Positions 6,201-49,500 of a stretch of 64,000 bases of DNA are shown in pieces (the first letter of the stretch is position 1; each line of letters starts with the position of its first letter). The notes under the pieces were generated by a model. It was given only the letters and a program-made list of their open reading frames with translations. It was not told the DNA's origin and did no database searches. Origin of the DNA: Blasia pusilla (taxonomy: Eukaryota); assembly GCA_050084515.1 (NCBI GenBank), contig CM114271.1, positions 36,022,001-36,086,000 on the forward strand, read 5' to 3'. The translations under genes were made by a program, and so were the position numbers.

Positions 6201-7212
6201 ATAAAAGGTTGAGAGGATTCAATACAAGAATATAAGATTAATACGAATCCGCGAATACATAAAGATGGACAATATAAAATGACGAAGAATACATAAAGAT
6301 GGTCAATACCCAATTAATACAAATCCGTGCAACAAGTAAAAGTGTAAGAGTTAAGAGTTATGGATAATACATTAAGACGCGAATACAAAATACGACCAAT
6401 ACGTCGAGAACCTAATCCTATTCATCCAATAATTGGTGTGACTACAGAAAGTATTGGATTCTGCACGTACCTAAGAGGGAACCGAAAAATACAGGCTTTA
6501 AGTTGGGGCCGTAAATATTTCCTCTACCAACCCTTCCTACCTTAGGACACGTACATGGTCATCCGTGGACCTGTCCATCCCTAGGACTAGTAAGACAAAC
6601 ATGTCCGGGCACCCAAACGTGTCGAATTTGTAATGAAGATCTAGGTTTGTTCAACTCGCACCTACTTATAGTCCACATGAAGCTTGCAAGACAGGTTCAG
6701 GCATGCACGGCCTTGAGCCCGCCCAACCTGCCCTACGGGCAGTATGCGGGCTTTATGCGGTGTACAAAATAGGTTTGGGTTGGATGAGCGCGGGTCTATG
6801 TTATATGCTCGGTGGGCTCGGATGTGGACGAGAACCTGTTGGGCATGTTTGTCTCATGGACGGACTTGTTCGTTTCCACGTAACCTTGCTCCCACCCGAC
6901 AACCTTTCTTGCACTTACGCAAGAAAAATTGAGAGTTCAAGGTTTATCGCCCAGCCACTAGGAGACAGTTCAAAATTCTCCATTATCACATCTTTGGTGT
7001 TTACGACCCATACGAATACTCCTTGTCTTCAACCTATCTAAGTGTCTTTTATGAGTTATGTCACGTCTTTTATGATAGATCGGTGAGATCTAGTAGAGCG
7101 CCTTCGTGAGTAATAGAAGACAGGCTCAATAGGTCGAGGATGACCTACTGAGGCTCCGGGAGACCTGAGAGAGCAGGTTTCCTCTTCGTTTCGGCTCATT
7201 TAGGGCCATATT

Positions 7213-8217
7213 GAGGAACTTACTATTTTAGGTAAGTACCATTTTGAGTATATAATTGACTTTATATTTTTTGTAAGTGGCCCTTGACCTCCTACATCAG
7301 GTCAAGAGCTAAGGAGGTGACTTGGGAGCATAGGTTACCATGGAGAGAGCTTGGGAGAGGGGAGGGGTATACCTAAAGGAGAGAGAGCTTGAGAGCTCAT
7401 TCTCTCTTTGTTGAACTTGTCGTGCAAATACACATCGCTGTACAACATACAATGTTGTCATCGAACACACACAAAAACACACACGATCCCATGCTAACTC
7501 ATGGCATCCATACACAGAGGCAAGAAGTACCAAAATATCTCCAATTAAAGTAAGATCCAATCTCTCTCTACACCATCTCACACCATAACTCTCAAAAGTG
7601 TGCACTCTCTCTCATGTCAAACCAAACCCACTCTCCTAATGAGAGGCTTGGGTTATACTCACAAGGCAAGGGACCATAGCTCCGCCGCCTTATGCCAAGA
7701 GGTTCAACAAAGAGAGAATGAGCTCTCAAGCTCACTCTTGGAGGTATACCCCCTTCCCTATCCCAAGCCCTCTCAACGGTAACCTATGCTCGTAGGTCAC
7801 CTCCTTGGCTCTTGACCTGCTGTAGCGGGTCAAGGGCCACTTCCCAAAGTGGAAATTCAACTATCCCCAACATGGAAACTTACCCAAAATAGTAAGTTTA
7901 TCTATATGGCTCCAAATAAGCCGAAATGAAGGGGAAACCTGTTCTCTCAGGTTTCCCGGGGCCTCAACAGGTCATCCTCGATCTCCCGGGCCTATCCTCC
8001 ACTACTCGTGCAGACGCTCTGGTAGATCCCACCGATCTATCTTAACAGTCGTGACAAACCTCTTGGCATGAGGCGGAGGAGCTATGGTCTTGCTTGCCTT
8101 GTGTGTGTAACCCAAGCCTCTCATTAGGAGAGTGGGTTTGGTTTGACATTGAGAGACATGTGAGAGTGCACACATGTGAGAACTATGGTGTTGTGAGAAA
8201 GATTGGATCATATTTTA
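7213..8217 (+). repeat. 5' direct repeat 'B' (LTR-like) of gypsy copy 1, split by solo insertion 7418-8056
   Basis: GAGGAACTTACTATTTT...ATTGGATC.TATTTTA matches 19466-19829 and 43694-44053 once the insertion is removed. Confidence 0.9.
7418..8056 (-). mobile_element. Solo terminal unit (A-B-C, 639 bp) of the same gypsy family, inverted
   Basis: Reverse complement reads TGTCACGACTG...GCACGACA and aligns to 5' segment A, repeat B and 3' segment C; flanked by AACT/AACC (4-bp TSD, one mismatch). Confidence 0.9.
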
Positions 8218-8232
8218 CAAAGAGAGAATGAG
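8217..8232 (+). promoter_or_regulatory. Putative self-priming primer binding site of gypsy copy 1
   Basis: ACAAAGAGAGAATGAG is the exact reverse complement of CTCATTCTCTCTTTGT at 7396-7411; the same pair occurs at 44053-44068 / 43877-43892. Confidence 0.65.
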
Positions 8233-9810
8233 TGATTGAGAGAGCTTCATAGGGGAGCTTGCTGGTTGCTCGATGTTTGGTGCAGGTTGGGGGACCGTAT
8301 TCCCCACTTTATGGTTCATGGGAGTGCTCACCGGAGCAAGAGCCGTGCGAGTTTTCTGTTTTGCTTTGTTGATTTTTGGTACGGGAGAGTGGCACGCGGA
8401 AGCGCTGCCCAATTTTTGATAGGAATTGAGTATGGGGGCGGATTGCTCCATGCTAGTGCTCTCGAGAGCACCATATAGTTTGCTGATTTGTGTCCTTACA
8501 AGTTTTAGATTTTCATTGGGAGAAATTAGGGCGGAAGCGCTACCAAATTTTGTGTAGGAGAAAGAGACATTGGGCTTTACAAAAATCCTTGTCAGTTTTC
8601 ACTCGAATGTCCGATTCAAAATATTTTGTGATAGCGTCGTAGATCGTGAAGCTATACACATTGTGCAATAGATGGTGTGTAATTTATAGTTGCAAAGAAA
8701 AATTTATGGTCAATCTTGCAAAATTGCCATTGATAGGAAATTTTTAGGGTTAAATTGTTCAAACCCTAAACCAGCCGCCACGCCGGCGGCGGCCATCCCC
8801 GTCATAGTCACCATCAACGGTCCACTGTCAATGGTCAATTGTCACCGTCAATAGTCAACCGTTACCGTCAACGGTCCGCCGTCACCATCAATCGTCCACC
8901 ATCCACCGTCCACTGTCGGCTGTTGTCCACCCTTGGTTGCCATTGCCGCCATTACGGAGTAGAGGATCTTCCACGACGCCCGTTGATTCTCTATCTTGCG
9001 CCGCCACCACGTACTTTATTTTGGCCACCATTGTCATCGCATTTTCGTCATCAACTAGTGATGGCAGGTGACCTCGGGTTATGGTGTTTGAGTTTTCATT
9101 TCATGCTGCTATGTTATGATTGGTAGTTGCTCGACGACGATTGAGTACCCTGCCGTGACGCCCGTAGCCGCAATGCGCCGCCGATTGCCGCGCCGTGCCG
9201 CTCGTGGCCGCACCGCACCGTCTTGATCGCGAAGTTGGTCCTTCACTAAGGACCAGAGTGTGTGAATTGCTGATTTTGGAGGGTATGCCATCGAGTGCCG
9301 CACCCCATTCCTGAGTGCCGTGCCATTTGTAGCCGTTCCGTGCTGCCAGTGCCGCACTGGACGGCCGGACCTGCACCGCACATCGAGGAGGTTTGATCAG
9401 CGTCCGTACGAGAGGAGTACGACTTGCTGATTGGAGGAGTTGTCTTCACCACCAAGTTGGGGTCGAGATTGCAATTGTCGAGGAGCGAAATTGACATTAT
9501 TGTCAAGTTACCCATTCTGGTCTCTTACCCTGGACGTGTGAGGGAATTACGCATATTGGGCAGTTATTTGGGGATATTGGGTTTCGTGCAGATGCTTAAA
9601 GCACCATTGATGTATGGGTTTAGGGGACATAGACCTATGTGGGATGTCCAGAGTTGAGGGTATATCTTGTCAATGAGATGATAGGATGGTAGTCGATTGC
9701 CACACCATGCCGCTTGTTGCCGCACAATTCACGTCTCAGTGAGAGAGTGTAGATTGAGTACTGCATGTTAGATTGAGTAATTAAGTGATTACACGCAAGG
9801 TTGAAAATGA

Positions 9811-11345
9811 TTGCGAGAGAGGGGCATGAGGGTCATCACGGGGTCCTTTCGGGATTTTGACAGGCGAGGTAGTGGACCTGAGAGTAGCTCTGGAGGGTTT
9901 ACCCGGAGTGGTGCGAGGTTCCGAGGGCCTCCACGTGAGAGACCACCTCGATCTCCTTCTATGTCATCTTCACACGAGGGAAAGCGTGTAGAGGAGCGTG
10001 TTAATGATCCAATGTACACATTGAGTGATCCTACTAGTTGGGCGTACGAGATGGACGACCAAAATAGAGGACCGCATAGGTTTTCAAGTGCTCTAGGCAC
10101 CGTAAAGCTACACGACTTCATTGCGGAGTTTAGGAGTTGGTATGACTCACAACGGGCTAGGAACTCTAGAGAGTTCAACCTGTTTACATCATGGAACGGT
10201 ATGTTCCAGCATTTAGAGGGGGCGCCCATGGACGATTACCATGAGTTCTCCCACAAATATGCCGAAGAGATTGAGGCATGGCGACTCTACTATGACCCAT
10301 ACTATGTGTCATGGACCGAGCCGTTCCCAGATGAGGAGGAGGAGTTATGAGAGGCTACTTCCTCTTCCACTAGTGATGTTTTAGGAGGGATCACTCGCAT
10401 TGGAGCAATTGCACCCTCTAGTCAGGTTCGTTCAGGTTCAACCCCGTGGTTGAGTTCTTCGCTGAGTTGAGGGCAAGCTACCACGGGGTACGGACGGAGA
10501 AGTTGCGGAGCATCCACGACTTCCAGAGGCGCCCAAGTGAGAGTTTGCATGAGGCTTACACTCGCTTGCGCCGGTTGATCAACATCACTCAAGGGGTGAT
10601 AGAGGCTCAGGCTATCCAGTCATGGTATGCGATGCTGGACCGGATCCTACGGACACGGGTGCGGGAGGGGTGCTTCTTATGAACACCTCCCATATGTTGA
10701 GAGATGTTTTTAGGACTGCTAAGAACATTGAGCGCAACATGGCGGAGGAGAGCGTAACCACCATGGGTTCTGGGCGAGAGCAGTTACGATTGTCTGCACC
10801 ACTTGTGCAGCAACGTGGACTCCGAGATAGGTCAACTGTGACACCACGAGCTCAGGAAAGATATCAGGAGGCCGTGCCACAGAGACGTGCGCCTTCATAT
10901 GCGGCTCAGCAGCACCCACCTACGATTACTTGTTGGTCATATGGTGGAGCCCATCATCCGTGTGATTGCACTCATTAGAGTCACGGATGTGTGCCTCAGC
11001 ATGGAGGAGGAGATGGTGCTGCACCACGAGGTTATCAGTGTGACTATTGTTAGAGGTATGGTCATTCACGCGCCAGGTGTTTCAATTTACATCTTGAGTT
11101 ACGTATGGACCGAGGGCCAGAGAGGGCACCAGAGCATGTAGCCGGTCCGGGTGGGCCTAGAGATCGTGCACCAGGTGGTCCCGTTGGGGGACGAGGAGCT
11201 GGAGTTGTCCGATAGGGTGGCGGAGCTAGCCATGGAGGAGGTAGAGTCCCAGCATCTAGATGCGTTGAGGGAGACGTTGGGCGCGAGGCTAGGATGGCTG
11301 ATTAGATACATCAATTATAGGAGCAAATTTCCGCTATGGCATTGA
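9811..11345 (+). pseudogene. gag (capsid-like region plus two CCHC zinc knuckles), frameshifted
   Basis: EFFAELRASYHGVRTEKLRSIHDFQRRPSESLHEAYTRLRRL (retrotransposon gag-like); knuckles TCWS(Y/C)GGAHH..DC and CDYC*RYGH...RC. Confidence 0.8.
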
Positions 11346-11827
11346 GATTACCTGATGTCGGATTAGTGGCATCGACATCATATGGAACAGCAAGAGATAC
11401 GGAGGATCCTGGTTGGATGTGCGGGATTGCCCAGTTGGAGGCCGCCATAGTTCTAAAGTGTGGAGCAGCCGCAAAGTTGGATCCACAACAAGGGGAAACT
11501 AGGAAATAGACTAGTCTTCCTCAATGTTTCACGTTGTTTGAGGCGATGAAGATCCCATCGATGGGTCTTGATCAGAATTCCTGGAGAGTTGGTGATGTTG
11601 TTGGTGTGCAGGCACGGAGGACGATGGGAGAAGCAAGTATGAAGACTCCTATTGTTGATGCTCATGAGGGGCATGTGTCGAGCTTGTTGCTGGGGGCGGC
11701 CACCGTTGTGTACCGCGCTCCTTTATTTTCTGCTTCCAATGTTATGACATCGGGAAGTACGCCCGTCGAGGTTCTTTGGCTAGCCGCTACGCTATGTGAG
11801 CGTGGAGTTGGAGTTCCAGCATCACGT

Positions 11828-13111
11828 TGTCGTGTCGAGAGCCTTTCTTCGAGCAAGGGCGGGCCTTCTAGCTGCGGTAGATGCGATCGATGCAAGGTGA
11901 ACTCTCTAAGAAGTTCTCCTTTTTCAATACAAAATTATGATGTACGCTCTCCATTCTCTCACGACAGGTATCACAAATGGAAGTGCTGAGGCGATCACTT
12001 CTTCGTAACATCGGACCCCGAAATTCCTAACTATAAAATCCCTATAAACTATTTTACGCTTGTACACGAGGAAGATAGCACAACTAGTGTTAAACCCTAC
12101 TTGAGCAGGCCTATTGACATCCATGGGTCGCTATATAAGGACATACAAAGTACAATCCCATGTCCTTCCATATGTGACGATAGGAAGAATCACCGGAGTT
12201 GGAGATTGGATACCCTGGTTCATGAACGCCTTCCCAAAGTGATAAACTAAATATCGAGTGAACCAGTGTCTATCTACAAAGAGTACCTTGACATGGCATG
12301 GATTGAAGAAAGGAAAGTCGGGCACAACTCGTGCTCCACCCCTATCCATGCTTGACAGACATTCTTTTCTCTCTTCAAGAATGGATTTTGGCGGAATTAT
12401 TCTCCCAAGAGGGGTAATCCACTCTCATTGGGGAATTAACAAGCCAAAACATTCACTATTTTAGTATGACTAAACTCTTCTAAGGTGAAAAACCTCTCAT
12501 CTCCACACACACACACACACCACACTCTAGAAACCTCTCGAAGAATAGATCATGATCAAGTTACTCTCCCAAGAGAGGTGATCCATTCTCATTGGAAGAG
12601 CAAGCAATCCCAAAGCCATACACTCAAGAGAGACACGAGAGACTCAAGATATGGAATAGAAGGTGATGAACCCTTGAAGGTCCCTCCTCTTTATATATTC
12701 AAAAGAGACCCACAAGAGTACGAAATAGAACTAATCTTATCTTGTGCCACATGGGTTCCTCTCAAGGCTTAGCCAATCACATTTTGACACAAGTAAATTT
12801 CTTCTTATCTCTTCCAAAATATCCTCTTTCACCTACTTGATATTTTCCAAATTACCCCAACTAATCTAGCCACCAACCAAGCCTACTTTTTCTTTTCATT
12901 AAAGCACTAACCTCACTACTTTACTTTAATAAAGTCATCCTTTATTTATTACCTCTTTTCCTAAAGTTGGGCCCGCATAAAAGAGGCACCATAAAGAGGT
13001 GTAAACATGGGAATTTCCTTTTCCTAAGCTAATTTACTTAATACTAATAAAACTCTCTCTAACACTTAACTAGGAAGGAGTTTACATACTGGCTGATTTT
13101 ACTATACGACA
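11828..13111. mobile_element. Nested solo-LTR-like insertion (1284 bp)
   Basis: Termini TGTCGT...ACGACA; perfect 4-bp TSD ACGT (11824-11827, 13112-13115); absent at the homologous site of copy 2 (~47647). Confidence 0.85.
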
Positions 13112-13156
13112 ACGTTCAGAGGTGATTGCCGAGGAGGTGATGGACCTGCCCTTGGA

Positions 13157-14157
13157 TGTCGCGACCCTCATGACCAAACAAGTGCCAAGCGGAACATCGG
13201 AACATTAGCGGGCTCACGCTAAGATGGTTTGCGCGTTGGAGTTGTCTCAAGGAGGAGACAAGAGACGAGACGCGAGCGAGAAGTCGCGTTTCAGATGTGA
13301 TGGTCGCGACTCAGAAACCTGGACCAAACGCGGAATGAGACTTGAAAGAAGTCGAGTCTAGGAAGTGGGTTGCCAAAGGAAAGATCCGGATTTGGAACGC
13401 CACTTGCGTTTGAGAGTTTCCGACTGTATTTATGGCCATAACTTTTAGCGCCGAGATGCGTTTGGAGCAAATAAGGGTGCGTTGGAAAGCTTATGGAGAA
13501 CCAGTCCAAACGCACCAAAGATCACTGCAAACGCATAAGCAGCAGCCAAGATACGACCCAAAAACGACTGTAAATGGAGTCGGGTTGAGGGCCACAATGA
13601 AGGCCCGAACCTCTTTTCCCAAAGGGAAGGGGTTATTGGAGAACCCCAGAAGTACTAGTAAGGGGGAAGGTCTCCGAGAATGCTTGGAACCCAAACCCCA
13701 CTTTGGGCGCCGCGGGGCCGCTCAAGGGCATGAAACGGAACGCGAGTTTGGGCGTTGGGTTGGAAAACCTGCACCAAGTCCATTGAGGCGATTTTAGACA
13801 TCCCTCTTGGATTTCACGCCGCGACTCAATTACTTGGGTCTCGGTTCGGAACTCACACGAGAACCGTTGAACAGTTGGGATCGCTAGGCGTGCAAGTGCC
13901 GTTTCAGATCCCTGGACTAACCAGGAAGTCTGTTCCAAGTCTTGAAGGACTTGCCATGTGTGGGGAGCTAGGAACTAAGGAAGGTTGAGCTTGATGAGAT
14001 GCCGAGTTGAGGACTCGGTGGGTTGGAACGCCGGTTGGCCAAACCCGACTAACGAGAGTGCGTGTTTGGGTGCAGATCGGCGATGAGTTCGTGACCTACT
14101 GAACGCACGCTTCCGCAACACTAAAGATTGACGTTCAAGGAGAGTAGGGGCGCGACA
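13157..14157. mobile_element. Nested solo-LTR-like insertion (1001 bp)
   Basis: Termini TGTCGCGACCC...GGGGCGCGACA; perfect 5-bp TSD TTGGA (13152-13156, 14158-14162); absent in copy 2. Confidence 0.85.
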
Positions 14158-14214
14158 TTGGAGTAGATGCTCGAGCCGTCCACGTCAGATTCATGGTAGG
14201 CTGTAACTGCTAGG

Positions 14215-14847
14215 ATGGCGAAGATGCCCACTAGACCCGAGATAGAGCATGCCATGGTTTTTCTTGGTGTTTTGTTGCTGGAGAAACGGGGAGAGGTCTT
14301 CCAATTGGTGAGTCCCGGAGGTAGAGCTTTTAGTCCGCAGCGTGTCTTGTTAGATTCAAGAGCGCAACCCCTGATGTTGGGGAAAGCGTCATTAAGAGGA
14401 TTGGGCTTGACGAGAGCCGATGTGGAGCGTTTTCCATTCCGGATACAGATATCCTTGGATGGAGAGAGTACCACACAATATATCACCCGACATGAGGTTG
14501 TGGTGAGGATTTTCCTAGGACATCCTACAGATGAGTCTGTGGTGCGAGCCAAGGCCATAGTGACTGATGCAGAGTCCTACGACGTCTTGGTTGGTGGAAC
14601 ATTGTTATATCCAATGGGGTTTTTCCTGGATTACTGGGAGAAGTCAGCGTCCTACAGACTAGGATGGCAGTCAGGTGATGGGCCCCTTAGCTCATTACCT
14701 GTTCGATTCACAGATGCAGTGATCGAGCGACGGCGAGGAGAGATGGCGACCTTAGCAACATTTAGTAGTGCCATCACTTGTCTTAGTGATTTGATTGAGG
14801 GACATGTCCATCCAGAGTATACTTTCGTTTATGATATTCCTATGTAG
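14215..14847 (+). pseudogene. Retroviral-type aspartic protease domain of gypsy pol
   Basis: RVLLDSRAQPLMLG (degenerate D-S-G) and YDVLVGG (D-x-L-x-G) motifs. Confidence 0.8.
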
Positions 14848-15060
14848 AGTAGTGTCATGGTAGTTGCATCAGTCTGTGGAGGAAAGGTGCCGTTTTTGGG
14901 CTCGACTGAGGAGCTTCGACGCTTAGCCATTGAGCATGTGCAAACCGTGTGGAGCGAGACGTTTGCACTTGAGTATGACGGATTAGAGGAACCCCAAGTA
15001 GGTAGGAGTGTTACTATGACCCCTTTGGACACCATCCCAATTTTGTGGTGCATCCCAAAG

Positions 15061-16000
15061 AAGGGTATTTGGGTGTTGGATCTCTTTGGAGGGATCAACA
15101 CTAGGTTAGTTGCTGTTTTGCACGCTGGAGTGTGCGTGCAGCAATACCTATATGTGGAGATTGATGATGTTACGAGGCACGCTTCACTTCACCATGTGGC
15201 GTTGTTACTCCTTCATTTTCTCGACTTGTTGTCTGCGTCCGCCATTCAAGATTACCAGAGTTCCTTATCGAGGGATATTTCATTGTTGGGGACGCAGGAC
15301 TTGGAGCGGGTAGGGACCATAGACTTGGTCATTACTGGTTGGCCGTGTCACGGCCAATCAAGTGCTAGACAAAGAAGCTTGTTAGCTTTTGGAAGATGAT
15401 GCGGATCTTGCGACATTTAAAGGAGCATCACCCTTCTTCTCCAGCATATATTTTGTAGAATATGCCAATTTTGGGCGATTTGAGGTCCCACGTGGTGACG
15501 AGTGCACATCATGTTCGAGCAAAGATTTTCCCGACAGTGTTGTTAGATGCGGTGAGTGTAGGTTCTAGAGCATACCGCCCGTGTGTTTGGTGGACCAACT
15601 TGATGCCACATCAGGTATTGCGGAGGGCATATGCGAGAGTGGAGCGCTCCTCTGATTTGTTGGTGGATTCTATATTGGATTTGGGCGGTCAATCACACGC
15701 TGTCAGGCACGATGATGGACCGCCGTTGATTGTGGTCAACAGGATTGGCATGCCACGAGCAGCCTTTTCCACATTGGTGAGTTTTCGTGCTACCTATGCA
15801 TTCAAGGAGGCCGGACCTAGTTTGGTTTGGGATGACCAGGTACAGAGGTTGGTGGAGCCCAACGCCGATGAGCAAGAGCAAGCGATGGGATTTCCCACAC
15901 GAGTGAGAGCAGTACCGTCACTACCGGAGGCAACACGACGTCATGTCTTGGGTCAGGAAATGGACCTGAACTGCTTGACATGGATTGTAAACTTAGGAGT
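15061..16000 (+). pseudogene. DNMT3-like C5 cytosine DNA methyltransferase domain embedded in gypsy pol
   Basis: Ordered motifs: I VLDLFGGI, II YVEID, IV DLVITGWPCHGQS, VI YIL*NM (ENV in copy 2), VIII DAVSVGSRAYRPCVWWTNL (AHRPRLWWTNL in copy 2), IX EQAMGFP, X RRHVLGQEMD. One frameshift near 15370 and a stop at 15456. Confidence 0.9.
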
Positions 16001-16304
16001 AGCTGAGCAACGTCGTTTGAGGATGCGATGCATCACAAAAGTTGCGTTGGTGAGCCCCATGCCTATCGAGACAGTTGAGGCATTGGCTGGGGGTGAGACC
16101 CAAGGAGATCGACACACCAGGGGTGATCGGGAGAGACACCCTTGGACTTCTTGGGATGTTTTGCAGGTACATCCGGAGATGATAGCCACAACATTGAGTG
16201 TGGTTCCAGATACCACACGTGGAGATGAGAGTTCTATTGTCCGAGACGAGGTTACACCATAGAAACCACCGACACCCGCGTCGGAGAGTCCTATTGTAGT
16301 CACA

Positions 16305-17778
16305 ATGGAGACTTGGGAGCCAGATATGGGCCCTAAGTTGACAAGAGGAGAGCAGTGCTGGATACACCAGTTCCTTTGGAGTTATAGGAGCTATTTTGCA
16401 TTTAGTATGCATGATTTGGGTATGCTGAAGGGTCCAGGGATCCGCATTGAGTTATCGAGTGACAAGCCGATCTTCCAACGACCCTTCAGGTATAGTGACA
16501 TGGAGAGGGCTCTGATTCACCGTAGGATCCAGGACTTGGTTGGAGCACGACTAGTGGAGATGTCGCATGGAGAGTATGCATCTACCACTATCATGCCCGC
16601 CAAGAAGGATGTGCATGGAAATTGGACGGATAGGCGGATGTGTGGAGATTACCGACCTATCAATCGGAAGACAAAGTTTGATAGGTATGCCATGCCCACC
16701 CCTGAGGAGATCTTTGATGCGATTGGGCATACAAAGATCTTTAGTTCATTGGATTTGCGAGCTGGATACCATCAATTGCCTATCAGAGTAGAGGACAGGC
16801 ACAAGACGGCATTTTGGGGCATCAATCCTCACGGGAAGGATTGTTTGTACCAATGGCGGTTCTTACCATTTGGGTTAAAGAACGCCCGGCTGAATTTCAG
16901 AAGGTCATGGATAGGATCTTGGCAGGTTTGGATTTTGCTAGGTGTTATATTGATGACATCGTAGTCTTTAGCGCCACAATTGAGGAGCATGAGCGACATC
17001 TAGAGGAAATGTTTCGACAATTGCTCTTACATGGGCTAAAGTTACATCCATGCAAGTGCAAGTTCTTCCATGGCTAGATTGAGTACTTGGGTCATACGAT
17101 ATACCTAGGGGGACTTGGTGTGCAATCGATGAAGGTAGAGGCTATTTCACGCATTCCACGCCCTACAGATGTGAGTCGAGTTCGTGCATTAATGGGATTG
17201 GCGAACTTCTATCGACGGTACGTCAAGGGTTTCAGTGTGATTACGAAGCCGCTAATCTTGAAAACCAAGGTAGATCAAGAGTGGCACTTGGAGGATGAGC
17301 AAGAGAGAGCATTTCAGATGCTCAAGGAAAGATTGACGTCCGCATCCATATTGAGGAGACCAATCAAGGGGCGTTCTTTCAATTGCTTATCGATTGGAGC
17401 ATGTTGGGGCTTACAGCCGTGCTCACCCAGCATGACGATGATGGTAGAGAGTTCATGGTGGCTTATGCTAGTCGCTCGAACAACGCTGCAGAGGTTAAGT
17501 ATAGCTCGTATAAGGGTGAGTGCTTGGCTGTAGTGTGGGCTGTTGCACATTTTAGATGTTATCTATTCGGAAATCCCCTTACCATCATTACTCATCATGA
17601 GCCACTTAAGTGGTTAATGGAGTCCGACAAGCTTACAAGAAAGCTTGCGAGGTGGGCTCTTTTGTTGCAGGAGTATGATTTCCAGGTGGTGCATAGACCT
17701 GGGACGCTCAACCAGGATGCAGATGGTTTGAGCCATAACCCATGCTTGAGTCAGCAAGATATGACTCGAGCTCATTAG
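16305..17778 (+). pseudogene. Reverse transcriptase and RNase H of gypsy copy 1
   Basis: RMCGDYRPIN, SLDLRAGYHQ, LPFGLKNA, YIDDIVVF; RNase H DWSMLGLTAVLTQ, VAYASRS, ECLAVVWAV, LARWALLLQEYDF. Confidence 0.95.
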
Positions 17779-18109
17779 CATGGTGAGAGTGATGAGGAGT
17801 TGGTGCTAGGATGGCATGCTTCAGCCTATTTGGGCTTGGTGGCTATGGAGAGCCAGATTCTTGAGACTTTGATGGCGAGGTCTGATGGAAAGTCCTTAGA
17901 TCCAGAGGCCGGTGAAGAGACAATACGTGACCGAGATATTCACGACAATGGAGTGGTCTTGGAGTATCTGTGTATTGGCAGCGTCGCGAGCACAGTGGGT
18001 ATGAGAGAGCGGGATCGGATCCTACAGTGAGCCAGACGGTTTCGGTGGGAGGGCACACATGTATTACGAGTGTGGGCGGATGGTAGAGTGCGTGTAGTGC
18101 CTCATCCTT

Positions 18110-19200
18110 TGTAGAGAGCACGTTTGGTGCGTCATGCCCACGAGGAGTTGGGTCATTTTGGAATGAAGCGGACGTACAGCTTGCTCTAGATTTAGTATTG
18201 GTGACGAGGCATGCAGATTGACGTTCAGCAGTTTGTTGCCAGATGCATGGTGTGTGATCGAGTCCGAGCATCGTTCAATGCTTTGACTCCATAGTTGCAT
18301 CCACTTCCGATCATGGATTTAGGTTATAGATGGAGTTTGGATTTTGCAGGACCTTTGCCTTTGACGGAGCGCCATAGTCGTTATGTGTTGGTGATGGTCG
18401 AGCACTTCTTGAAGTGGATAGAGTTAGTTGCATTGCCTGACAAAGCGAGTGAGGGAGTAACGTATGCCTTCCTAGATCGAGAGCTGAGTCATTACGGTGT
18501 ACCAGCTGAGGAGTTGACAAACCAGGACATGGTTGCGGGGAGTTTCAGGCCTTGTGTGATCAGGCACCAATCAACCACCGCACTAGTTCGCGAGATCATC
18601 CTGAGGCGGATGGACTAGCGGAGCTGGTTGTGCGGACGATGAAGAGAGGACTACACAAGTATGGCTTGTAGAGAGGTCACCTAGGAGATTGAAAACCTTT
18701 AGTTGTCGTGGTTGGCGATGGGATACAAATTCAGCAGGGAGGCATCCTTAACGTCTTTCTCACCATACTTGTTGCTTTATGGCCGAGAGCCAGATTTACC
18801 TGCAGCCATTTTTCGAGATGTTGGTGAGGTGTTGAACCTTGAGGACCCTGATGCATGGATGTGAGCATGTTCTTAGAGGGCTGAGTTGTTTCGGAGAGTG
18901 ATGCCCATGGCGTTTGAGAACTTGGCAATTGCGCAACATCGAGATACGTTGAGGTATGCAACTATTCGTGGAGGTGGTTATCGACCTACTATCTAGAGGT
19001 TTCATTAGGGACACTATGTCTACTTGCAGCAGACGGCACCCACGATGTTGGATGTGACTGCAAGACGCACCATCTTGAGAGTGCGTGAGGTTTTGCCATC
19101 TAGTGTTCTCTTATTGGAGGGACGCGATGGTATGGTTTGGAAGGACCATGTGCGTAATTATACGCCATGTCATCTTCTGAACTTTGACGGTACACTTGAT
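18110..19200 (+). pseudogene. Integrase (HHCC zinc finger, catalytic core, C-terminal domain) of gypsy copy 1
   Basis: HAHEELGHFG...CMVCDR; WSLDFAGPLP..YVLVMVEHF..WIE; several stops and frameshifts. Confidence 0.9.
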
Positions 19201-19230
19201 CTGAGCTTAGCAATAGTTCCTGCAGGCTTG

Positions 19231-19374
19231 CGATTTATGTTGTGTGGTTCCTCCCGTAGTGCAGCCACTATGCTAGTCAGTGATGGGTGTTCGAGAGGAT
19301 GGCATATAGCATGTTTGATGCCATCTCTCACTAGGATTCTTGAGGGACGATGGATGTGTCCCACATGTTCATAG
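19231..19374 (+). pseudogene. PHD finger at the C-terminus of pol
   Basis: (F)MLC...MLV(S)DGCSRGWHIACLMPSL..ILEGRWMCPTC fits C4HC3 spacing; two Cys are one substitution away (TTT, AGT from TGT). Confidence 0.85.
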
Positions 19375-19465
19375 AATAGGTAGTTCTACATTCCGACTTG
19401 TGTCTGTGACATGAATGACATGAAGGCGACTAACGATGGGGCCACATGAGCACATTAGCGTCCGA

Positions 19466-19829
19466 GAGGAACTTACTATTTTAGATAAGTATCATTTTGA
19501 GTATATGATCGACTTTCTATTTTTGGTAAGTGACCCTTGACTTCCTACATCAAGTCAAGAGCCTAGGAGGTGACTTGGAAGCATAGGTTACCATGGAGAG
19601 AGCTTCGGAGAGGGGAGGGGTATACCTCAATCAGAGAGAGTTTGACAGCTCATTCTCTCTTTGTTGAACCTCTTGGCATGAGACGGCGGAGCTATGGTCT
19701 TGCTTGCCTTGTGTGTGTAACCCGAGCCTCTCATTAGGAGAGTGGGTTTGGTTTGACATTGAGAGAGATATGTGAGAGTGCACACATGTAAGAACTATGG
19801 TGTTGTGAGAGAGATTGGATCTTATTTTA
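19466..19829 (+). repeat. 3' direct repeat 'B' of gypsy copy 1, followed by unique terminal segment C (19830-19956)
   Basis: Aligns to 7213-7417 plus 8057-8217; segment C aligns to the solo unit end (7418-~7545, minus). Confidence 0.9.
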
Positions 19830-20054
19830 TTGGAGATATTTTGGTACTTCTTGTCTTGTTGTTTTAATGCCATGAGTTAGCATGGGATCGTTTGTGTTTG
19901 TGTGTGTGTTCGATGACAGCGATGTATGTTGTGTAGCGATGTGTATGCGCACGATAATTATGATAACAAGTATAAGGCCACATAACGCTTTAAGCATATG
20001 GGGAATTCAAAGTGTGTATGGAATGCACTTTGTGGGATCTTGAATGCTTGGAAT

Positions 20055-28189: not shown

Positions 28190-28455
28190 CGAGAACGTGC
28201 AAACGGGACATCGACATTTGGTGCGGCACATCCATACGGATTGCAAGAAGTCCTCCGTGGAGTCGAACGATTTTGAGTCGGCGGTCGTGCATCATCAAGC
28301 TTCGTGATTTCATCTGTGTTCAGTGACGGGTGTACATTCGTGTGTAGGATTCGCTCTCTCTGGGGTTAGAAGGTATAGTTGCAATTTGGTCTCCGACAGA
28401 AAAGTTGCAATTCTTTGGTAGTTCCTTTCCGAAGGAACTGCCTGCGAAGAGGATC

Positions 28456-43539: not shown

Positions 43540-46500
43540 TGTCACGTCTTTTAGGATAGATCGGTGGGATCTAATAGAGCGGCTTCATGAGTAGTGGAGG
43601 ACACGCCTAGTAGGTCGAGGGTGAGCAGCTGAGGCCCTTGGAAACCTGAGATAGCAGGTTTTCCCTTCGTTTCGACTCATTTGGAGCCATATTGAGGAAC
43701 TTACTATTTTAGGTAAGTACCATTTTGAGTATATGATCGACTTACTATTTTTGGTAAGTGGCCCTTGACCTCCTATATCAGGTCAAGAGCCAAGGAGGTG
43801 ACTTGGGAGAATAGGTTACCATGGAGAGAGCTTGGGAGAGGAGAGGGGTATACCTCAAGGAGAGAGAGCTTGAGAGCTCATTCTCTCTTTGTTGAACCTC
43901 TTGGAATGAGGCGGCGGAACTATGGTACCTTGCCTTGTGAGTGTTACCCAAGCCTCTCATTAGGAGAGTGGGTTTGGTTTGACATGAGAGAGAGTGCACA
44001 CCTTTGAGAGCTATGGTGTGAGATGGTGGAGAGAGAGATTGGATCTTACTTTACAAAGAGAGAATGAGAGAATGAGAGAGTGAGAGAGCTTCATGGGGGA
44101 GCTTGCTGGTCACTCGCTTTTTTTGCAGGTTGGGGACCGTGTTTCCCGTTCAGCGGCTCATGGGAGTGCTCACCGGAGCAAGGGCTGCTTTCATTACTCT
44201 TTGCATTTGCCAATTTGCCGATTTTTCGTGTGGAAGAGTGGCGCGCGGAAGCGCTGCCCAATTTCTGATAGGGATTGAGTATGGGGGCGGGTTGCCCCAT
44301 GCTGGTGCTCTCGGGAGCACCATGTAGCTTGCTGATTTGTAGTTTTACAGATCTTACATTTTAGTTAGGAGAAATCAGCGAGGAGTGCTGCCGAATTTTG
44401 TATAGGAGAAAGAGACATTGGGCTTTACGACAGTCCCCGTCAGTTTTTACTGAAATGTCCGATTCTAAATATTTTTTGATGGTAGCGTAGATCGTGGAGC
44501 TGTGCACGCTGTGCAACAAACAATGCACAATTTGGAGTTGCGAGCAAAAAGTTATGGGCAATCTTGTAAAGCTGCCATTGCTAGGCGATTTTTAGGGTTG
44601 AATCGTGCAAACCCTAAATCAGCTGCCACACCGGCGGCGGCCGTCGCCATCATAGTCACCGTCAACAGTCGACGGTCAATCATCACCGTCAACGGTCAAT
44701 CATCACCGTCAACGGTCAACCGTCACAATCAACGGTCAACCGTCACCGTCTTCGGTCGGCCGTCACCATCAGCAGTCAACCGTCACTGTCAAGGGTCCAC
44801 CGTCCATTGTCCACCCTTTGGGTGCCATTGCCGCCATTACGGAGTGGAGGGTCTTCCATGACGTTCGTTGATTCCTTGACTTGCGTCGCCACCACGTACT
44901 TTGTTTTGGCCGCCACCGTCATCGCAGTTTCTTCATCAACCTGTGAAGGCAGATGACCTCCGGTTATGGTGTTTGAGTTTTGATTTCATGCTGCTATGTT
45001 GTGATTAGTAGCCGCTCGACGACGATCGAGTATCGTGCCGTGACGCCCGTAGCCGCAACGCGCCGTGCCGCTCGTGGCCGCATCGCACCATTTCGATCAC
45101 GGAGCCGCACCGTCATTGTGGAGCAGAGTGTGGGATTATTATTGATTGAGGAGGGTATGCCGCCATCGAGGGCCACCATCGAGGGCCGTGCCGTTCGTAG
45201 CCGTTCCGTGCCGCATGCAACGCCAAGACCGTTCGGCGGGACCGCATCTTTGTCTATCGAGGAGTTTTGAGCAGCATCAGTACGGGAGGAGTATGACTTG
45301 CTGATTGGAGGAGTTGTCTCCACGATCGAGTTGGGGTCGAGATTTGCAGTTGCTGAGGAGCGACATCGACATGTGTTTAGGTTACCCATTCTGGTCCTTT
45401 ACCCCGCACGTGTGAGGGATTTAGGATTTATTTGGGGATATTGGGTGTGTGGATCTTTGAGAGCATCATTTATGTATGTGGTTTAGGGGACATAGACCTG
45501 TGTGGGATGTCCGGAGTTGAGGGTAGGTTATCGATGATATGATAGCCTGGTCGATTTGCCACACCACGCCGCGTGTTGCCGCACGTTACACGTCGCGGGG
45601 AGAGAGAGTGTAGATCGAGTGCCGCATGTTTGGGATGAGTGATTGAGGGATTCCTCACGAGGTTCGAGTGATCGGGTGAGAGGGGCACGAGGGTCATCAC
45701 GAGTCTGTTCGGGACTTTGAGAGGCGAGGTGGTGAACCCAGGAGTAGCTCTAGAGGTTTTACGCGGAGTGGCGCGAGGTTTCGAGGGTCTCCACGTGAGG
45801 GACCACCTCCACCTCCTTCTGTGTCATCGTCAGACGAGGGGGAGGGTGTAGAGGAGTTTGTGAGCACATCGCCACACATTGTGAGTGGTCCTACCGGTTG
45901 GGCGTCATTGAGATGGACGACCGGGGTAGAGGACCACGAGGTTTTCAGTGCGTGAGGAACGATTGAGTTGCACGATTTTTATAGCGAGTTTAGGAGTTGG
46001 TGCGACTCCCGGGCCAGGAACTCTAGAGAGTTCAACCCGTTCTGACATGGAACGGTATGTTCCAAAGATTTAGAGGGGGCGCCCATGGGCGATTACCATG
46101 AGTTCTCTCGAGAGATATGCATGTGAGATCGAGGCGTGGAGGCTCTACTATGACCCATATTATGTGTCTTGGACGGAGCCGTTCCCGAGATGAGGAGGAG
46201 GAGTCGGGAGAGGCTCGCCTCTTCCACTAGTGACGTTTTAGGAGGGGTCACCGCACGGGAGCGATTGCACCGTCTAGTCGGGTTCGCCCCGAGTTCAACT
46301 CGTGGTTGAGTTCTTTTTTGAGTTGAGGGCGAGCTACCAGGGGGTACGGACGGAGAAGTTGCGGAGCATCCACGACTTCCAGAGGCGCTCAGGTGAGAGT
46401 TTGTGTGAGGCTTACACTCGCTTGCGCCGGTTGATCAACGTCACTCAGGGGGTGACAGAGGCTCAGGCTATCCGGTCATGGTATGCGATCTTTGGATCGG

Positions 46501-49500
46501 ACCTGCGGACACGGGTGCGGGAGGGGGTGCTTTTATGAACACCTCCCCTACGTTGAGAGATGTTTTTAGGACCGCCGAGAACATTGAGCGCAACATGGCG
46601 GAGGAGAGCATAGCAACCATGGGTTCTAGGCGAGAGCGATCCACGATTATCGCACCACTGTGCAAAGCGTGGACTCGAGATAGGTCGATCGTGGCACCAC
46701 GAGCTCGGGGAGGATACCGAGAGGTCGTGCCCACGAGACTGCGCCTTCATATGCGGCTCGGCAAAGCACCGCCTACTTTTACTTGTTGGTCATGTGGTGG
46801 AGCCCATCATCGGCGCGATTGCACTCGTCGGGGTCATGGACGTGTGCCTCAAAGATGGAGGAGGAGATGGTCTCGCACCAAGGAGGTTATCAGTGTGACT
46901 ATTGTTAGAGGTATGGTCATACACGCGCCAGGTGTTTTAGTTTACATCCTGAGTTACGCCTGGACCGAGGGCAGAGAGGGCACCGAGCGAGTAGCCGGTC
47001 CGGGTGGGCCTAGAGATCGTGCTCGGTGGTCCGTTGGGGACGAGGAGCCGGAGTTGCCCGGCCAGGGTGGTGGAGCTGCCCGTGGAGAGGTAGAGTACCA
47101 CCACCTAGACGCGGTGAGGAGATGCCGGACGTGAGGCGGGATGGGCGCTCGAGATACAATAGCTACTACGAGGAGCGGATTGCCGCTATGGCATTGAGGT
47201 TACCCGATGCCGGATCCGTGGCATCGACATCATATGGAGCAGCCAGAGATCTGGAGGATCTTGGATGGATGTCTTGGGTTGCCAGATGGAGCAGCGACGC
47301 AGAGTTGATCCACATCGAGGGGAAGCGGTAGAGAGACTAGGCTTCCTCAATCTTTCACGTTGTCGAAGCGATGAGGACCCCATCGATGGGTCCTCATCAA
47401 AGTTCCTGGAGAGTTGATAATGTTGTTGGTGTGCAAGCACGGAGGGCGATGGGAGAAGCGAATGCAACGACTCCTATTGTTGATGCTTAGGAGGGGCATG
47501 TGTTGAGCACGTTGTTGGGGGCGGCCATCGTTGTGTATCGCACTCCTTTATTTTCTCGCTTCCGATGTTGTGACGTTGGGAGGTACGCCCGCCGAGGCAC
47601 CGGCTGGCCGCTTCACTATGTGAGCGGAGTTGGAGTTCGCATCACGTCAGAGGTGATTGCAGAGGAGGTGATGGACCTGCCCCTTGAGCGGATGCCGGGC
47701 CGCCCACGTCAGATTCATGGCAGGCTGCGGCTGCTAGGATGGCGGAGATGCCCGCTAGACCCGCGATAGAGCGTGCCATGGCTTCTCCTGGTATTGTGTT
47801 GCTAGATAACCGAGGAGAGGTCTTCCGGTTGGTGAGTCCTGGAGGTAGAGCTTTTAGTCCAGGCGTCTTGTTGGATTCAGAGCGCAACCCTTGATGTTGG
47901 GGAAAGCGTCATTGAGAGGATTGGGCTTGCGAGCCGATGTGGAGTGTTGTCCATTTAGGATCTGAGACATCTTTGGGTGGAGCGAGTACCACCGATATAT
48001 CACTTGACAGAGGTCGTGGTGAGGATTCGCCAGGACATCCTCTGAGATGAGTCCGTAGTGCGTGCCAAGGCGATAGTGATTGATCTTTGAGTCCTCACGA
48101 CGTCTTGGTTGGTGGAGCGATGTTATACCCGATGGGGTTTTCCCTGGATTCTTGGGAGGAGTCGGCGTCCCTCTGCACCAGGATGGCGATCAGGTGATGG
48201 GCGCCTTAGCTCATTACCCGTTCGATTCACAGTGCGATGATCGAGCAATGGCCAGGAGAGATGGCGACCTTAGCAAAGATTTAGCAAAGTGCCATCACTT
48301 GGCCTAGTGATTTGATTGAGGACATGTCCATGCAGAGTATACTCCGTTCAGACATTTCTATGGAGAGGAGTGTTATGGTATTGCATCATTCCGTGGAGGA
48401 GAGGTGCGGCTGTGGGGCTCGGCGAGGAGTTTCAAACGATTGGCAAATGCGCACGCACGTGGACCGTGTGGGCGAGGCGTTTGCACGAGGCGTGGTCAGT
48501 CCGAGGAACCCGAGGTAGCGGGAGTGCTACAATGACACCCTTGGATACTACACCCATTGTGTGGTGTGTACCTCGGAGGAGGGTATTCGAGTGTTAGATC
48601 TCTTTGGAGGGATTAGCATCGGGTTAGCTCTTGTTTTGCGGCAGGAGAGCGAGTACTGTGAGTACTTGTATGTGGAGAGTGATGATGTTGCAAGGCGCGT
48701 CTCACTCGACATGTGGCGCAATTACGCCCACGTTTTCCCGACTTATTATCTGCGTCCGCAGTCTGAGGGTACCAGAGTTCCCTACCGAGGGATATTTTGT
48801 TGTTGGGGCGCAGGACTTAGAGCGGTAGGGACCATTGATTTGGTCATTGTCGGTTGGCCATGTCGGGCCAATCGAGTCCGGACGAGGCGGCCGGGTTGGT
48901 GACACTTGGTCCGGGTTGTTTTTAGGAGATGTTGAGGGTCCTACGGGCGATTGGGTGGAGCACCGTCTCGTTCTCAGCCTACATTCGGAGAATGTGCCGA
49001 TCTTAGAGACTCCAGTCACGGGTCGTGGACGAGTGCTCATCAGTGCGCCTGGATCGCCCAAAGCAGTGTTCTTGGATGCGGCGAGTGTAGGTTCTAGAGC
49101 CCATCGCCCGCGTCTATGGTGGACCAACTTGGTGCCCCATGCGGTGTTATGGAGGGCGTATCAGAGTGGAGCGCCCCTCCCTTTGTTAGTGGATTCCATT
49201 CGGATCCAGTCGCCGATCCACAGCAAAGTGAGGCACGATGATCGACCACCGATCGTGCGGGTCAACGGGTAGGCAGGCGGGTAGCCTTGCCCACGTTTGT
49301 GAGTTTTTCCCGCTTCCTATGCATACAAGGAGGCCGGTCCTGGCTTGGTTTGGGATGACCAGGTTCAGCCGTTGGTGGAGCCTAACGCCGAGAGAGAGAG
49401 CGGTGATGGGATTTCCCCACAGAGTAGCGGAAGTACCATCGGTGTCGAGGCATCATGTCTTGGGTCGCCATGTCTTGGGTCAGGCGATGGACTGAATCGC

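What the first reader, a model, noticed from the sequence alone, without database searches (positions are those of the whole stretch)
19231..19374. PHD finger on the integrase tail: chromatin reader and methylation writer in one element
Seen: a C4HC3 pattern ends pol, where chromoviruses usually carry a chromodomain. Known: many PHD fingers read H3K4 methylation state, and animal DNMT3 couples its catalytic domain to a PHD-like ADD domain. Inference: the element pairs a histone-mark reader for target choice with a de novo methyltransferase, an autonomous epigenetic module. It is visible in only one copy here because copy 2 is truncated.
Basis: partly seen in the sequence, partly recalled or inferred. 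Interest (0 to 1): 0.72.

Follow-up and report, generated by a model that had tools for sequence, protein, structure and literature searches.

The report
PHD-integrase retrotransposon with leaky-stop methyltransferase
The stretch is a real but damaged histone-binding zinc finger at the tail of the integrase of a dead jumping gene that also carries a DNA methyltransferase; across the family a conserved leaky stop codon puts the methyltransferase on the abundant coat-protein side and the finger on the rare integrase side, so the two probably work at different steps rather than as one reader-writer unit.

Summary
The PHD finger is real (Pfam PF00628, 36.5 bits, cut-off 24), but this decayed copy keeps only 6 of 8 zinc ligands; 21 of 29 integrase-selected sister copies keep all 8. 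It ends the integrase of a very large Ty3/Gypsy family (about 11,000-13,000 search candidates in a 390-Mb, probably bryophyte genome) that carries a DNMT3-like domain between protease and RT. PHD and DNMT are both under purifying selection. Relatives with both domains span the green lineage. The pieces are known (KnitGypsy-Dnmt3, PHD-bearing Gypsy-7a, EpiLTRs), and this scan noted the same PHD twice on other genomes. New here: an in-frame UAG between DNMT and RT in 36 of 36 copies, 34 with the TMV-type readthrough context CAR-YYA, kept in relatives whose flanks are unrelated. Gag-PR-DNMT is therefore probably abundant and RT-RH-IN-PHD a rare readthrough product. The finger lacks the H3K4me3 cage and keeps the H3 A1/R2 contacts: likely an integrase tether to H3 tails. 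The element has split repeats (A...B-A-B) yet 4-bp target duplications. Binding, readthrough and methylation are inferred, not measured.

The parts
7059..19956 (+). Whole decayed Gypsy element, copy 1 (ends TGTCACG ... GCACGATA; 4-bp target duplication GTTA/ATTA)
7059..8217 (+). 5' repeat A1 (7059-7416 and 8057-8217), split by a nested insert
   Evidence: self-BLAST; match to L031 repeat A
7418..8056 (-). Nested inverted solo A-B unit of the same family (flanks AACT/AACC)
9811..11828 (+). gag region, decayed; followed by unrelated inserts at about 11829-14157
   Evidence: tblastn of L163 ORF1; Retrotrans_gag weak in sister L048 and in P0178
14200..14847 (+). Aspartic protease region (approximate)
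   Evidence: Asp_protease hits below cut-off in L163 ORF1, above cut-off in P0085
15064..16013 (+). DNMT3-like C5 methyltransferase, broken in this copy
   Evidence: PF00145 in sister copies; DNMT3A best among solved structures
16260..16268 (+). Family-wide in-frame UAG between DNMT and RT; here TAG AAA CCA, in 34 of 36 copies TAG CAA CCA (copy 2: TAG CAA CCA at 49812)
16629..17110 (+). Reverse transcriptase (approximate, frame change inside)
   Evidence: PF00078
17377..17680 (+). RNase H
   Evidence: PF17917
18090..18700 (+). Integrase zinc finger and DDE core (approximate, with stops and frame changes)
19231..19374 (+). PHD finger at the integrase C-terminus, 6 of 8 ligands, then stop
19466..19956 (+). 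3' repeats: partial A2 (19466-19829) and B2 (19829-19956); B1 and the start of A2 are missing in this copy
43540..51112 (+). Copy 2 of the family, ends within RT, no PHD

Best explanation
A dead copy of a Gypsy family of the KnitGypsy-Dnmt3 kind. Shown by sequence: ORF1 = Gag-PR-DNMT (about 1,370-1,400 codons), an in-frame UAG-CAR-YYA, ORF2 = RT-RH-IN-PHD (about 1,040 codons), inside split repeats A...B-A-B, inserted by a DDE integrase (TG...CA ends, 4-bp duplication). Inferred, step by step: (1) most ribosomes stop after the DNMT and a minority read through, so DNMT is made at Gag level and IN-PHD at a fraction of it (about 0.85); (2) the element's protease separates the domains in the particle (established for retroelements, not tested); (3) the abundant DNMT methylates the new cDNA in or near the particle, so copies arrive pre-methylated (about 0.5); (4) the PHD stays on integrase and tethers it to the free H3 N-terminus through A1 and R2, with weak or indirect preference against H3K4me3, steering insertions away from active promoters (about 0.6). 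Reader and writer act at different steps.
For: Stop: TAG in 36 of 36 alignable copies (41 given), CAA CCA after it in 34; divergent subfamily L039 too. Control: 25 other CAG columns read TAG in 6% on average, 16% at most. Relatives: L163 has a 1,369-aa PR-DNMT ORF, TAG CAG TTA, and a 1,047-aa RT-RH-IN-PHD ORF; full UAG-CAR-YYA in 6 of 8 loci of that wider group, the other 2 decayed; a second host group has stop+CAA in 24 of 28 (includes near-duplicate contigs). Flanks between groups are 18-37% identical while the 9 bases are kept. 28 of 54 DNMT homologues are PR-DNMT proteins ending 55-190 aa after the DNMT with no RT. CAR YYA after UAG is the TMV signal, 6-10% readthrough in stable plants (PMC2754532, passages). 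First Met of ORF2 falls at codons 3 to 117 in different relatives, so no shared restart site. PHD: KDM5B-PHD1 equivalents L325, D328, P347, G349, W351 (PMC4225485) are kept in 41, 39, 39, 38, 41 of 41 full-ligand copies; cage position is Gly in 40 of 41 and 77 of 83 relatives. Nearest solved PHDs: CHD4, ATXR5, KAT6A, KDM5 PHD1. Predicted PHD-H3(1-30) complex: weak pass, 0.41 against best control 0.02, runs agree in at least 91% of contacts, partner pLDDT at least 54; the mark was reached by 51 of 78 solved and 2 of 108 mismatched pairs, but at 0.60 or under by only 5 of 78 solved and all 4 passing mismatches; peptides are untested and solved PHD-H3 complexes exist, so it may show likeness only. 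PHD-bearing Gypsy-7a_cRei inserts in intergenic DNA 2.6 times more than chance (PMC9940879).
Against: No measurement of readthrough, binding or methylation. The second host group reads CAA CCC, one base off the motif, followed by ATG, which would also fit re-initiation. Four of 54 homologues, including Klebsormidium KFL_009030040, and P0010/P0143/P0085 have DNMT and RT in one ORF, so the stop is not clade-wide. The K4-binding Asp (KDM5B D308) is absent in 41 of 41 copies, and 40 of 41 have no acid in the six residues before the first Cys, so K4 selectivity is doubtful. CG observed/expected of the element (0.77 in L031, 0.55 in L163) is not lower than in host chromodomain elements (0.56-0.89), giving no sign of self-methylation. 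None of 29 integrase-selected copies is free of stops between the catalytic Glu and the PHD, and only 13 of 28 read in one frame: the family looks largely decayed. Insertion sites were not compared with chromatin data.
Confidence: 0.6

Rival explanations
1. One reading: the PHD guides the DNMT to chromatin as ADD does for DNMT3A, either in an uncut readthrough protein or in an integration complex that keeps the DNMT.
For: Both domains co-occur in most relatives: DNMT-like hit in 66 of 91 and full C4HC3 in 83 of 91 (query held the PHD). In chlorophyte-type elements the DNMT lies just upstream of IN-PHD. The finger is of the non-cage type.
Against: About 1,000 residues and a stop separate them here; the PHD follows integrase in every arrangement while the DNMT changes place; no second zinc knuckle or PHD lies next to the DNMT (the PHD upstream of DNMT in L033 belongs to a nested copy).
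Confidence: 0.15
2. The PHD is a kept structural or protein-interaction module of the integrase tail (multimer, particle or host-factor contact) and does not read histones.
For: No K4 acid and no cage; the moss-type finger is short of acidic residues; complex score only weak.
Against: The surface residues kept (D328, P347, G349, L325 equivalents) are the ones that bind H3 A1 and R2 in KDM5B and UHRF1, and D328 is kept in 78 of 83 relatives.
Confidence: 0.2
3. ORF2 (RT-RH-IN-PHD) is made from a spliced RNA or by re-initiation, not by readthrough; the stop simply ends ORF1.
For: ATG three codons after the stop in the second host group; one rare GT-AG-type joint from the 5' leader into the integrase in RNA reads (8 reads in 3 runs).
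Against: CAR-YY is kept with changes only at the free positions (CAA/CAG; TTA/TCA/CCA) while flanks diverge; ORFs stay in frame across the stop; in L163 and L190 the first Met is codon 117; none of the 15 joints shown (7 more hidden) joins into the start of ORF2.
Confidence: 0.1

Closest known systems
KnitGypsy-Dnmt3 of Klebsormidium nitens (de Mendoza et al. 2018, PMC5890265; passages, Fig. 4 legend, three small supplements; figure and main supplement not seen)
   Same: Gypsy pol with a DNMT3-like domain under purifying selection; DIRS-like repeat layout; K. nitens protein KFL_009030040 has PR-DNMT-RT-RH-IN order and is a homologue.
   Different: Here a UAG separates DNMT from RT, whereas the K. 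nitens protein is continuous; copy number is far higher; the text and readable supplements do not contain 'PHD' or 'readthrough'. The K. nitens protein is partial and ends before the PHD, so its tail is unknown.
Gypsy-7a_cRei of Chlamydomonas reinhardtii (Craig et al., PMC9940879; passages)
   Same: Gypsy polyprotein with a PHD finger proposed to limit harmful insertions; intergenic bias.
   Different: No methyltransferase listed in its legend. A C. reinhardtii homologue (CHLRE_09g398141v5) has RT-RH-degenerate DNMT-like-IN-PHD, but I could not show it is Gypsy-7a.
EpiLTRs of Cymbomonas and Euglena (bioRxiv 10.64898/2026.05.21.726589; passages)
   Same: A histone reader and a cytosine methyltransferase in one LTR element.
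   Different: They have a chromodomain, an adenine methyltransferase and a DNMT4-sister enzyme; this has a PHD and a DNMT3-like enzyme.
TMV-type (type I) UAG-CAR-YYA readthrough (PMC2754532; passages); gag-stop-pol in Tca2 (PMC2194720; search listing and abstract only)
   Same: Same 9-base signal; in-frame stop setting a structural-to-enzyme ratio.
   Different: The stop lies after Gag-PR-DNMT, not after Gag. Use of this signal before the env-like gene of SIRE1 is recalled, from no call.
Chromoviruses (Neumann et al. 2019, PMC6317226; passages)
   Same: Reader domain at the integrase C-terminus.
   Different: No chromodomain; RT/RH/IN only 28-41% identical to the host's chromodomain elements, which form a separate branch (SH 100).

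Membership tests
PHD finger (PF00628) | Score above Pfam gathering cut-off | tested here: met
   36.5 bits vs 24
PHD finger (PF00628) | C4HC3, eight ligands, in this copy | tested here: not met
   6 of 8
PHD finger (PF00628) | C4HC3 as the family state, in frame with integrase | tested here: met
   21 of 29, 25 of 29; one ORF in L031-L034 and L163
H3K4me3-reading PHDs (BPTF/ING2) | Aromatic cage Trp two residues before the His ligand (position recalled; role from PMC4225485) | tested here: not met
   Gly in 40 of 41 copies and 77 of 83 relatives
Unmodified-H3 readers (KDM5B PHD1 type) | A1 pocket (L325, P347, G349, W351) and R2 acid (D328) | tested here: met
   38-41 of 41 copies; 60-78 of 83 relatives
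Unmodified-H3 readers (KDM5B PHD1 type) | K4-binding Asp before the first Cys (D308) | tested here: not met
   0 of 41 copies; D/E at that place in 15 of 83 relatives
Unmodified-H3 readers (KDM5B PHD1 type) | Measured binding to H3 peptide | not testable with these tools
   only a weak predicted pass
KnitGypsy-Dnmt3 / streptophyte Gypsy-DNMT3 | DNMT3-like, unpermuted domain with catalytic residues | tested here: met
   DNMT3A best PDB match; motif IV Cys in 62 of 64 and motif VI Glu in 63 of 67 relatives
KnitGypsy-Dnmt3 / streptophyte Gypsy-DNMT3 | Gypsy order PR-RT-RH-IN with DDE integrase | tested here: met
KnitGypsy-Dnmt3 / streptophyte Gypsy-DNMT3 | DIRS-like repeat layout | tested here: met
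   A1...B1-A2-B2 in G000 copies and in L175, L223; their figure not seen, so match is to the legend's words
KnitGypsy-Dnmt3 / streptophyte Gypsy-DNMT3 | DNMT in the same open ORF as RT | tested here: not met
   in-frame UAG in 36 of 36; hence a variant, not a plain member
Chromovirus | Chromodomain after integrase; grouping with chromoviruses | tested here: not met
   no REXdb reference sequences were on hand, so finer lineage placement was not tested
EpiLTR | DAM + DNMT + chromodomain | tested here: not met
   Pfam of both L163 ORFs
DIRS/Ngaro elements | Tyrosine recombinase, no target duplication | tested here: not met
   none; 4-bp duplications in 6 of 9 copies, 3 not checkable
Phygy (P. 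patens) | NCGN target preference (PMC6317226) | tested here: not met
   0 of 8 duplications read NCGN
Type I stop-codon readthrough | In-frame UAG followed by CAR YYA | tested here: met
Type I stop-codon readthrough | Measured readthrough | not testable with these tools
   needs reporter, ribosome profiling or proteomics
ADD-DNMT3 module | PHD-like domain directly N-terminal to the catalytic domain (recalled) | tested here: not met
   PHD is about 1,000 residues C-terminal, beyond a stop

The most novel reading that the evidence does not exclude
An old, green-lineage-wide Gypsy clade carries both a DNMT3-like writer and an integrase PHD reader. Its bryophyte-side branch uses a plant-virus readthrough signal to make the methyltransferase a Gag-level component of the particle, so each cDNA is methylated before a PHD-tethered integrase places it, and replicates through a split-repeat intermediate whose B|A join mimics an LTR circle junction. 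With on the order of ten thousand copies and sense transcripts, element-made DNMT3 may also have written part of the host methylome.
Probability: 0.35. Interest if true: 0.8.

Novelty: new variant of a known kind. Interest (0 to 1): 0.55.

Why it matters
Why retrotransposons keep methyltransferases is open (PMC5890265, discussion passages). The stop codon gives a handle: it predicts that the DNMT is needed in Gag-like amounts, which fits action on the element's own cDNA and not chromatin-guided methylation, and it is cheap to test. Gag-PR-DNMT gene models ending at about the same place exist in Marchantia polymorpha (MARPO_0063s0090, 0204s0011, 0020s0163) and IN-PHD homologues in Chlamydomonas reinhardtii, both with genetics and chromatin maps. 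Such models can also inflate counts of host DNMT3 genes in bryophytes. The PHD by itself is ordinary.

Tried and rejected
Second PHD upstream of the DNMT in L033 as an ADD-like domain: it is the tail of a nested, 78%-identical copy. Conserved stop as a CAG-to-TAG decay hotspot: rejected by the 25-column control. Inverted repeats at 7417-8057 as DIRS-type inverted ends: they are a nested solo unit. CG depletion as a mark of self-methylation: no signal. RNA structure after the stop: z -3.0, -2.4, -2.0, -1.4, -0.6 in five sequences, not consistent enough to claim. Origin of the two DNMT positions: the chlorophyte-type (RH-DNMT-IN) elements form one branch in the RT-RH-IN tree (SH 100) and split from the others in the DNMT tree (SH 90), but no host DNMT3 outgroup was included, so one capture plus relocation versus two captures is undecided. 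Linking CHLRE_09g398141v5 to Gypsy-7a: not found in the one, cut, supplement. Sequencing-run search for the window copy: no RNA holder listed. PMC11982613, PMC7466625 and PMC6453930 (passages) held nothing on this element. Not in print, as far as searched: paper searches listed no paper describing PHD plus DNMT3 in one Gypsy clade or this stop; the library lacks most subscription papers, Repbase and theses, and Fig. 4c and the main supplement of PMC5890265 could not be seen and may show the PHD.

Full report
Observation. Bases 19231-19374 read as a 47-residue stretch and a stop. It scores 36.5 bits against Pfam PHD (cut-off 24), and its nearest solved relatives are PHDs of CHD4, ATXR5, KAT6A and KDM5. 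The full C4HC3 pattern is not in this copy: two of eight ligand positions hold Phe and Ser. The copy is dead, with stops and frame changes through DNMT, RT and integrase.

The family. The own genome (390 Mb, 26 contigs) gives 11,247 first-look candidates for the integrase tail plus PHD, 12,650 for the integrase core and 12,783 for the DNMT; 150 were scored each time and these are not copy numbers. All eight ligands stand in 25 of 29 copies picked with the PHD query. To avoid that bias I picked 29 copies by integrase core: 28 have a PHD nearby (one on the other strand) and 21 have all eight ligands, but only 13 of 28 read in one frame from the catalytic Glu to the PHD and none is free of stops. 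Natural ORFs holding integrase zinc finger, core and PHD exist (4 of 4 long frames tested). Pairwise dN/dS between divergent copies (17% or more apart; few such copies, pairs not independent) is 0.17 for PHD, 0.17 for DNMT, 0.07-0.11 for IN, RT and RH; among close copies it is 0.35-0.57. Repeat pairs of five copies differ by 1-5.6%. In three RNA runs of one study, labelled as the same species, about 4,300-4,600 of 10-12 million reads lie along the whole of copy L031, about ten to one in the orientation expected for sense RNA and mostly 90-95% alike, i.e. from many diverged copies. The host is probably a bryophyte: the closest named DNMT relatives are from Calypogeia fissa and Marchantia polymorpha (SH 100); this is inference.

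Ends. Copies run TGTCACG...GCACGACA with matching 4-bp duplications in 6 of 9 examined (3 not checkable), so a DDE integrase inserts them. The repeats are split: A1 (514 bp), internal part, B1 (128 bp), two bases, A2, B2. The B|A spacer was two bases in 46 of 46 pattern matches (some copies counted twice), like the join of an LTR circle. Two loci from another host show the same layout (L175, L223). This fits the legend of KnitGypsy-Dnmt3: DIRS-type repeats with Gypsy domains (PMC5890265). How such an element replicates is not shown here.

Spread. The integrase tail plus PHD found 91 long proteins; 83 have full C4HC3 and 66 a DNMT-like region. Named hosts include Coleochaete, Klebsormidium, Chlamydomonas, Pleodorina, Tetrabaena, Haematococcus, Hariotina and Cymbomonas. 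The DNMT lies before RT in 6, between RNase H and integrase in 46, and before integrase in 14 proteins lacking RT. Catalytic Cys and Glu are kept in 62 of 64 and 63 of 67, though degenerate in the C. reinhardtii, Pleodorina and Tetrabaena proteins. The RH-DNMT-IN type forms one branch; the host's chromodomain elements form another, far off.

The stop. Many close relatives began about 120 residues before RT, which led to the DNMT-RT junction. All 24 copies readable in frame have a stop there. At DNA level it is TAG in 36 of 36 alignable copies of 41 given, followed by CAA CCA in 34; the window copy has AAA CCA. It and the stop after the PHD are the only family-wide stops in that frame, and the frame upstream is open for about 1,400 codons. 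Ordinary CAG codons decay to TAG in 6% of copies, at most 16% (25 columns). Of 77 metagenome loci, 36 had enough sequence before RT and were read. L163 holds two open frames, 1,369 and 1,047 codons, joined by TAG CAG TTA. L164 and L190 have TAG CAA TCA, L167 TAG CAA CCA, L170 and L215 TAG CAG TTA; L202 and L205 look decayed. In a second host group 26 of 28 have a stop at the aligned site, 24 followed by CAA, mostly CAA CCC ATG; 2 did not align. Flanks between groups are 18-37% identical. CAR YYA after UAG is the TMV readthrough signal (PMC2754532); chance of it after a given stop is about 0.001 by base composition. Among 54 DNMT homologues, 28 are PR-DNMT proteins that end shortly after the DNMT, 4 run on into RT, 17 are of the RH/IN type, 5 unclear. 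So the stop marks one branch, not the whole clade.

What the finger can read. Against KDM5B PHD1 (PMC4225485), the A1 pocket and R2 acid are kept in 38-41 of 41 full-ligand copies (41 of 58 loci matched the pattern), the K4 acid in none, and the cage position is Gly. UHRF1's PHD binds mainly through A1 and R2 with loose K4 selectivity (PMC3214078), the closest behaviour to expect. A predicted complex with the host H3 tail passed only weakly (0.41 vs 0.02; counts under Best explanation) and may reflect solved look-alikes.

Mechanism. Best reading: abundant Gag-PR-DNMT, rare readthrough to RT-RH-IN-PHD; DNMT acts on the cDNA (the idea of cDNA methylation comes from PMC5890265), PHD tethers integrase to H3 tails. 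Shown: layout, conservation, selection, motif. Inferred: readthrough, cleavage, substrate, binding, targeting.

Known and new. DNMT3 in Gypsy (PMC5890265), PHDs in retrotransposons (PMC6673714, PMC8557442, PMC9940879, bioRxiv 2021.11.30.470311) and reader-plus-writer elements (bioRxiv 2026.05.21.726589) are in print; all were read as passages. Two earlier notes of this scan describe the same PHD and DNMT in other genomes. I found no paper or note on the UAG-CAR-YYA stop after the DNMT in this family, nor on the two DNMT positions; unseen figures and supplements of PMC5890265 and closed preprint supplements may bear on this. Verdict: real, a new variant of a known kind; interest 0.55, most of it from the stop and the scale, not from the PHD.

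Noticed in passing
L031:1854-8617: RNA reads (1, 4 and 3 in three runs) join the 5' leader to the integrase core across GT...AG ends in the element's sense; first Met after it would give about 218 residues ending in the PHD. Three shared bases at the joint and no DNA control, so a genomic deletion in one copy is as likely.
   Followed up: partly
window 28348-29571 (+): Uninterrupted 407-codon frame with Amidohydro_2 (PF04909, E 5.6e-27) and a hydrophobic, signal-like stretch near its start; origin not checked.
   Followed up: no
window 34039-39681 (+) and 51921-56542 (-): Two copies, about 89% alike and inverted, of a Copia-type element (RVT_2, gag_pre-integrase).
   Followed up: no
window 56831-57283 and 41322-41765: Degenerate 67-bp tandem repeat in two related regions.
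   Followed up: no
window 11829-14157: Two unrelated inserts in gag of copy 1, with a 43-bp piece of the element between them at 13114-13156.
   Followed up: no
P0022, P0014, P0031 and other chlorophyte-type proteins: A further 270-390 residues follow the PHD in many of them, with no Pfam match in those scanned.
   Followed up: no
P0173, P0177, P0178, P0180 (Marchantia), P0170 (Calypogeia): Gene models annotated as hypothetical proteins are PR-DNMT parts of this element family.
   Followed up: partly
P0122, P0193: Proteins of this plant/algal element stand in databases under bacterial labels (Synechococcales, Minisyncoccia), probably binning contamination.
   Followed up: no
L163:5083-5200, L164:4661-4778, L167:502-619: A long stem starting about 14 bases after the UAG folds in these three relatives (z -2 to -3) but weakly in the other two tested.
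   Followed up: partly
G000, L153-L162: The genome also holds chromodomain-bearing Gypsy elements (1,636 candidates), a natural control for targeting studies.
   Followed up: partly
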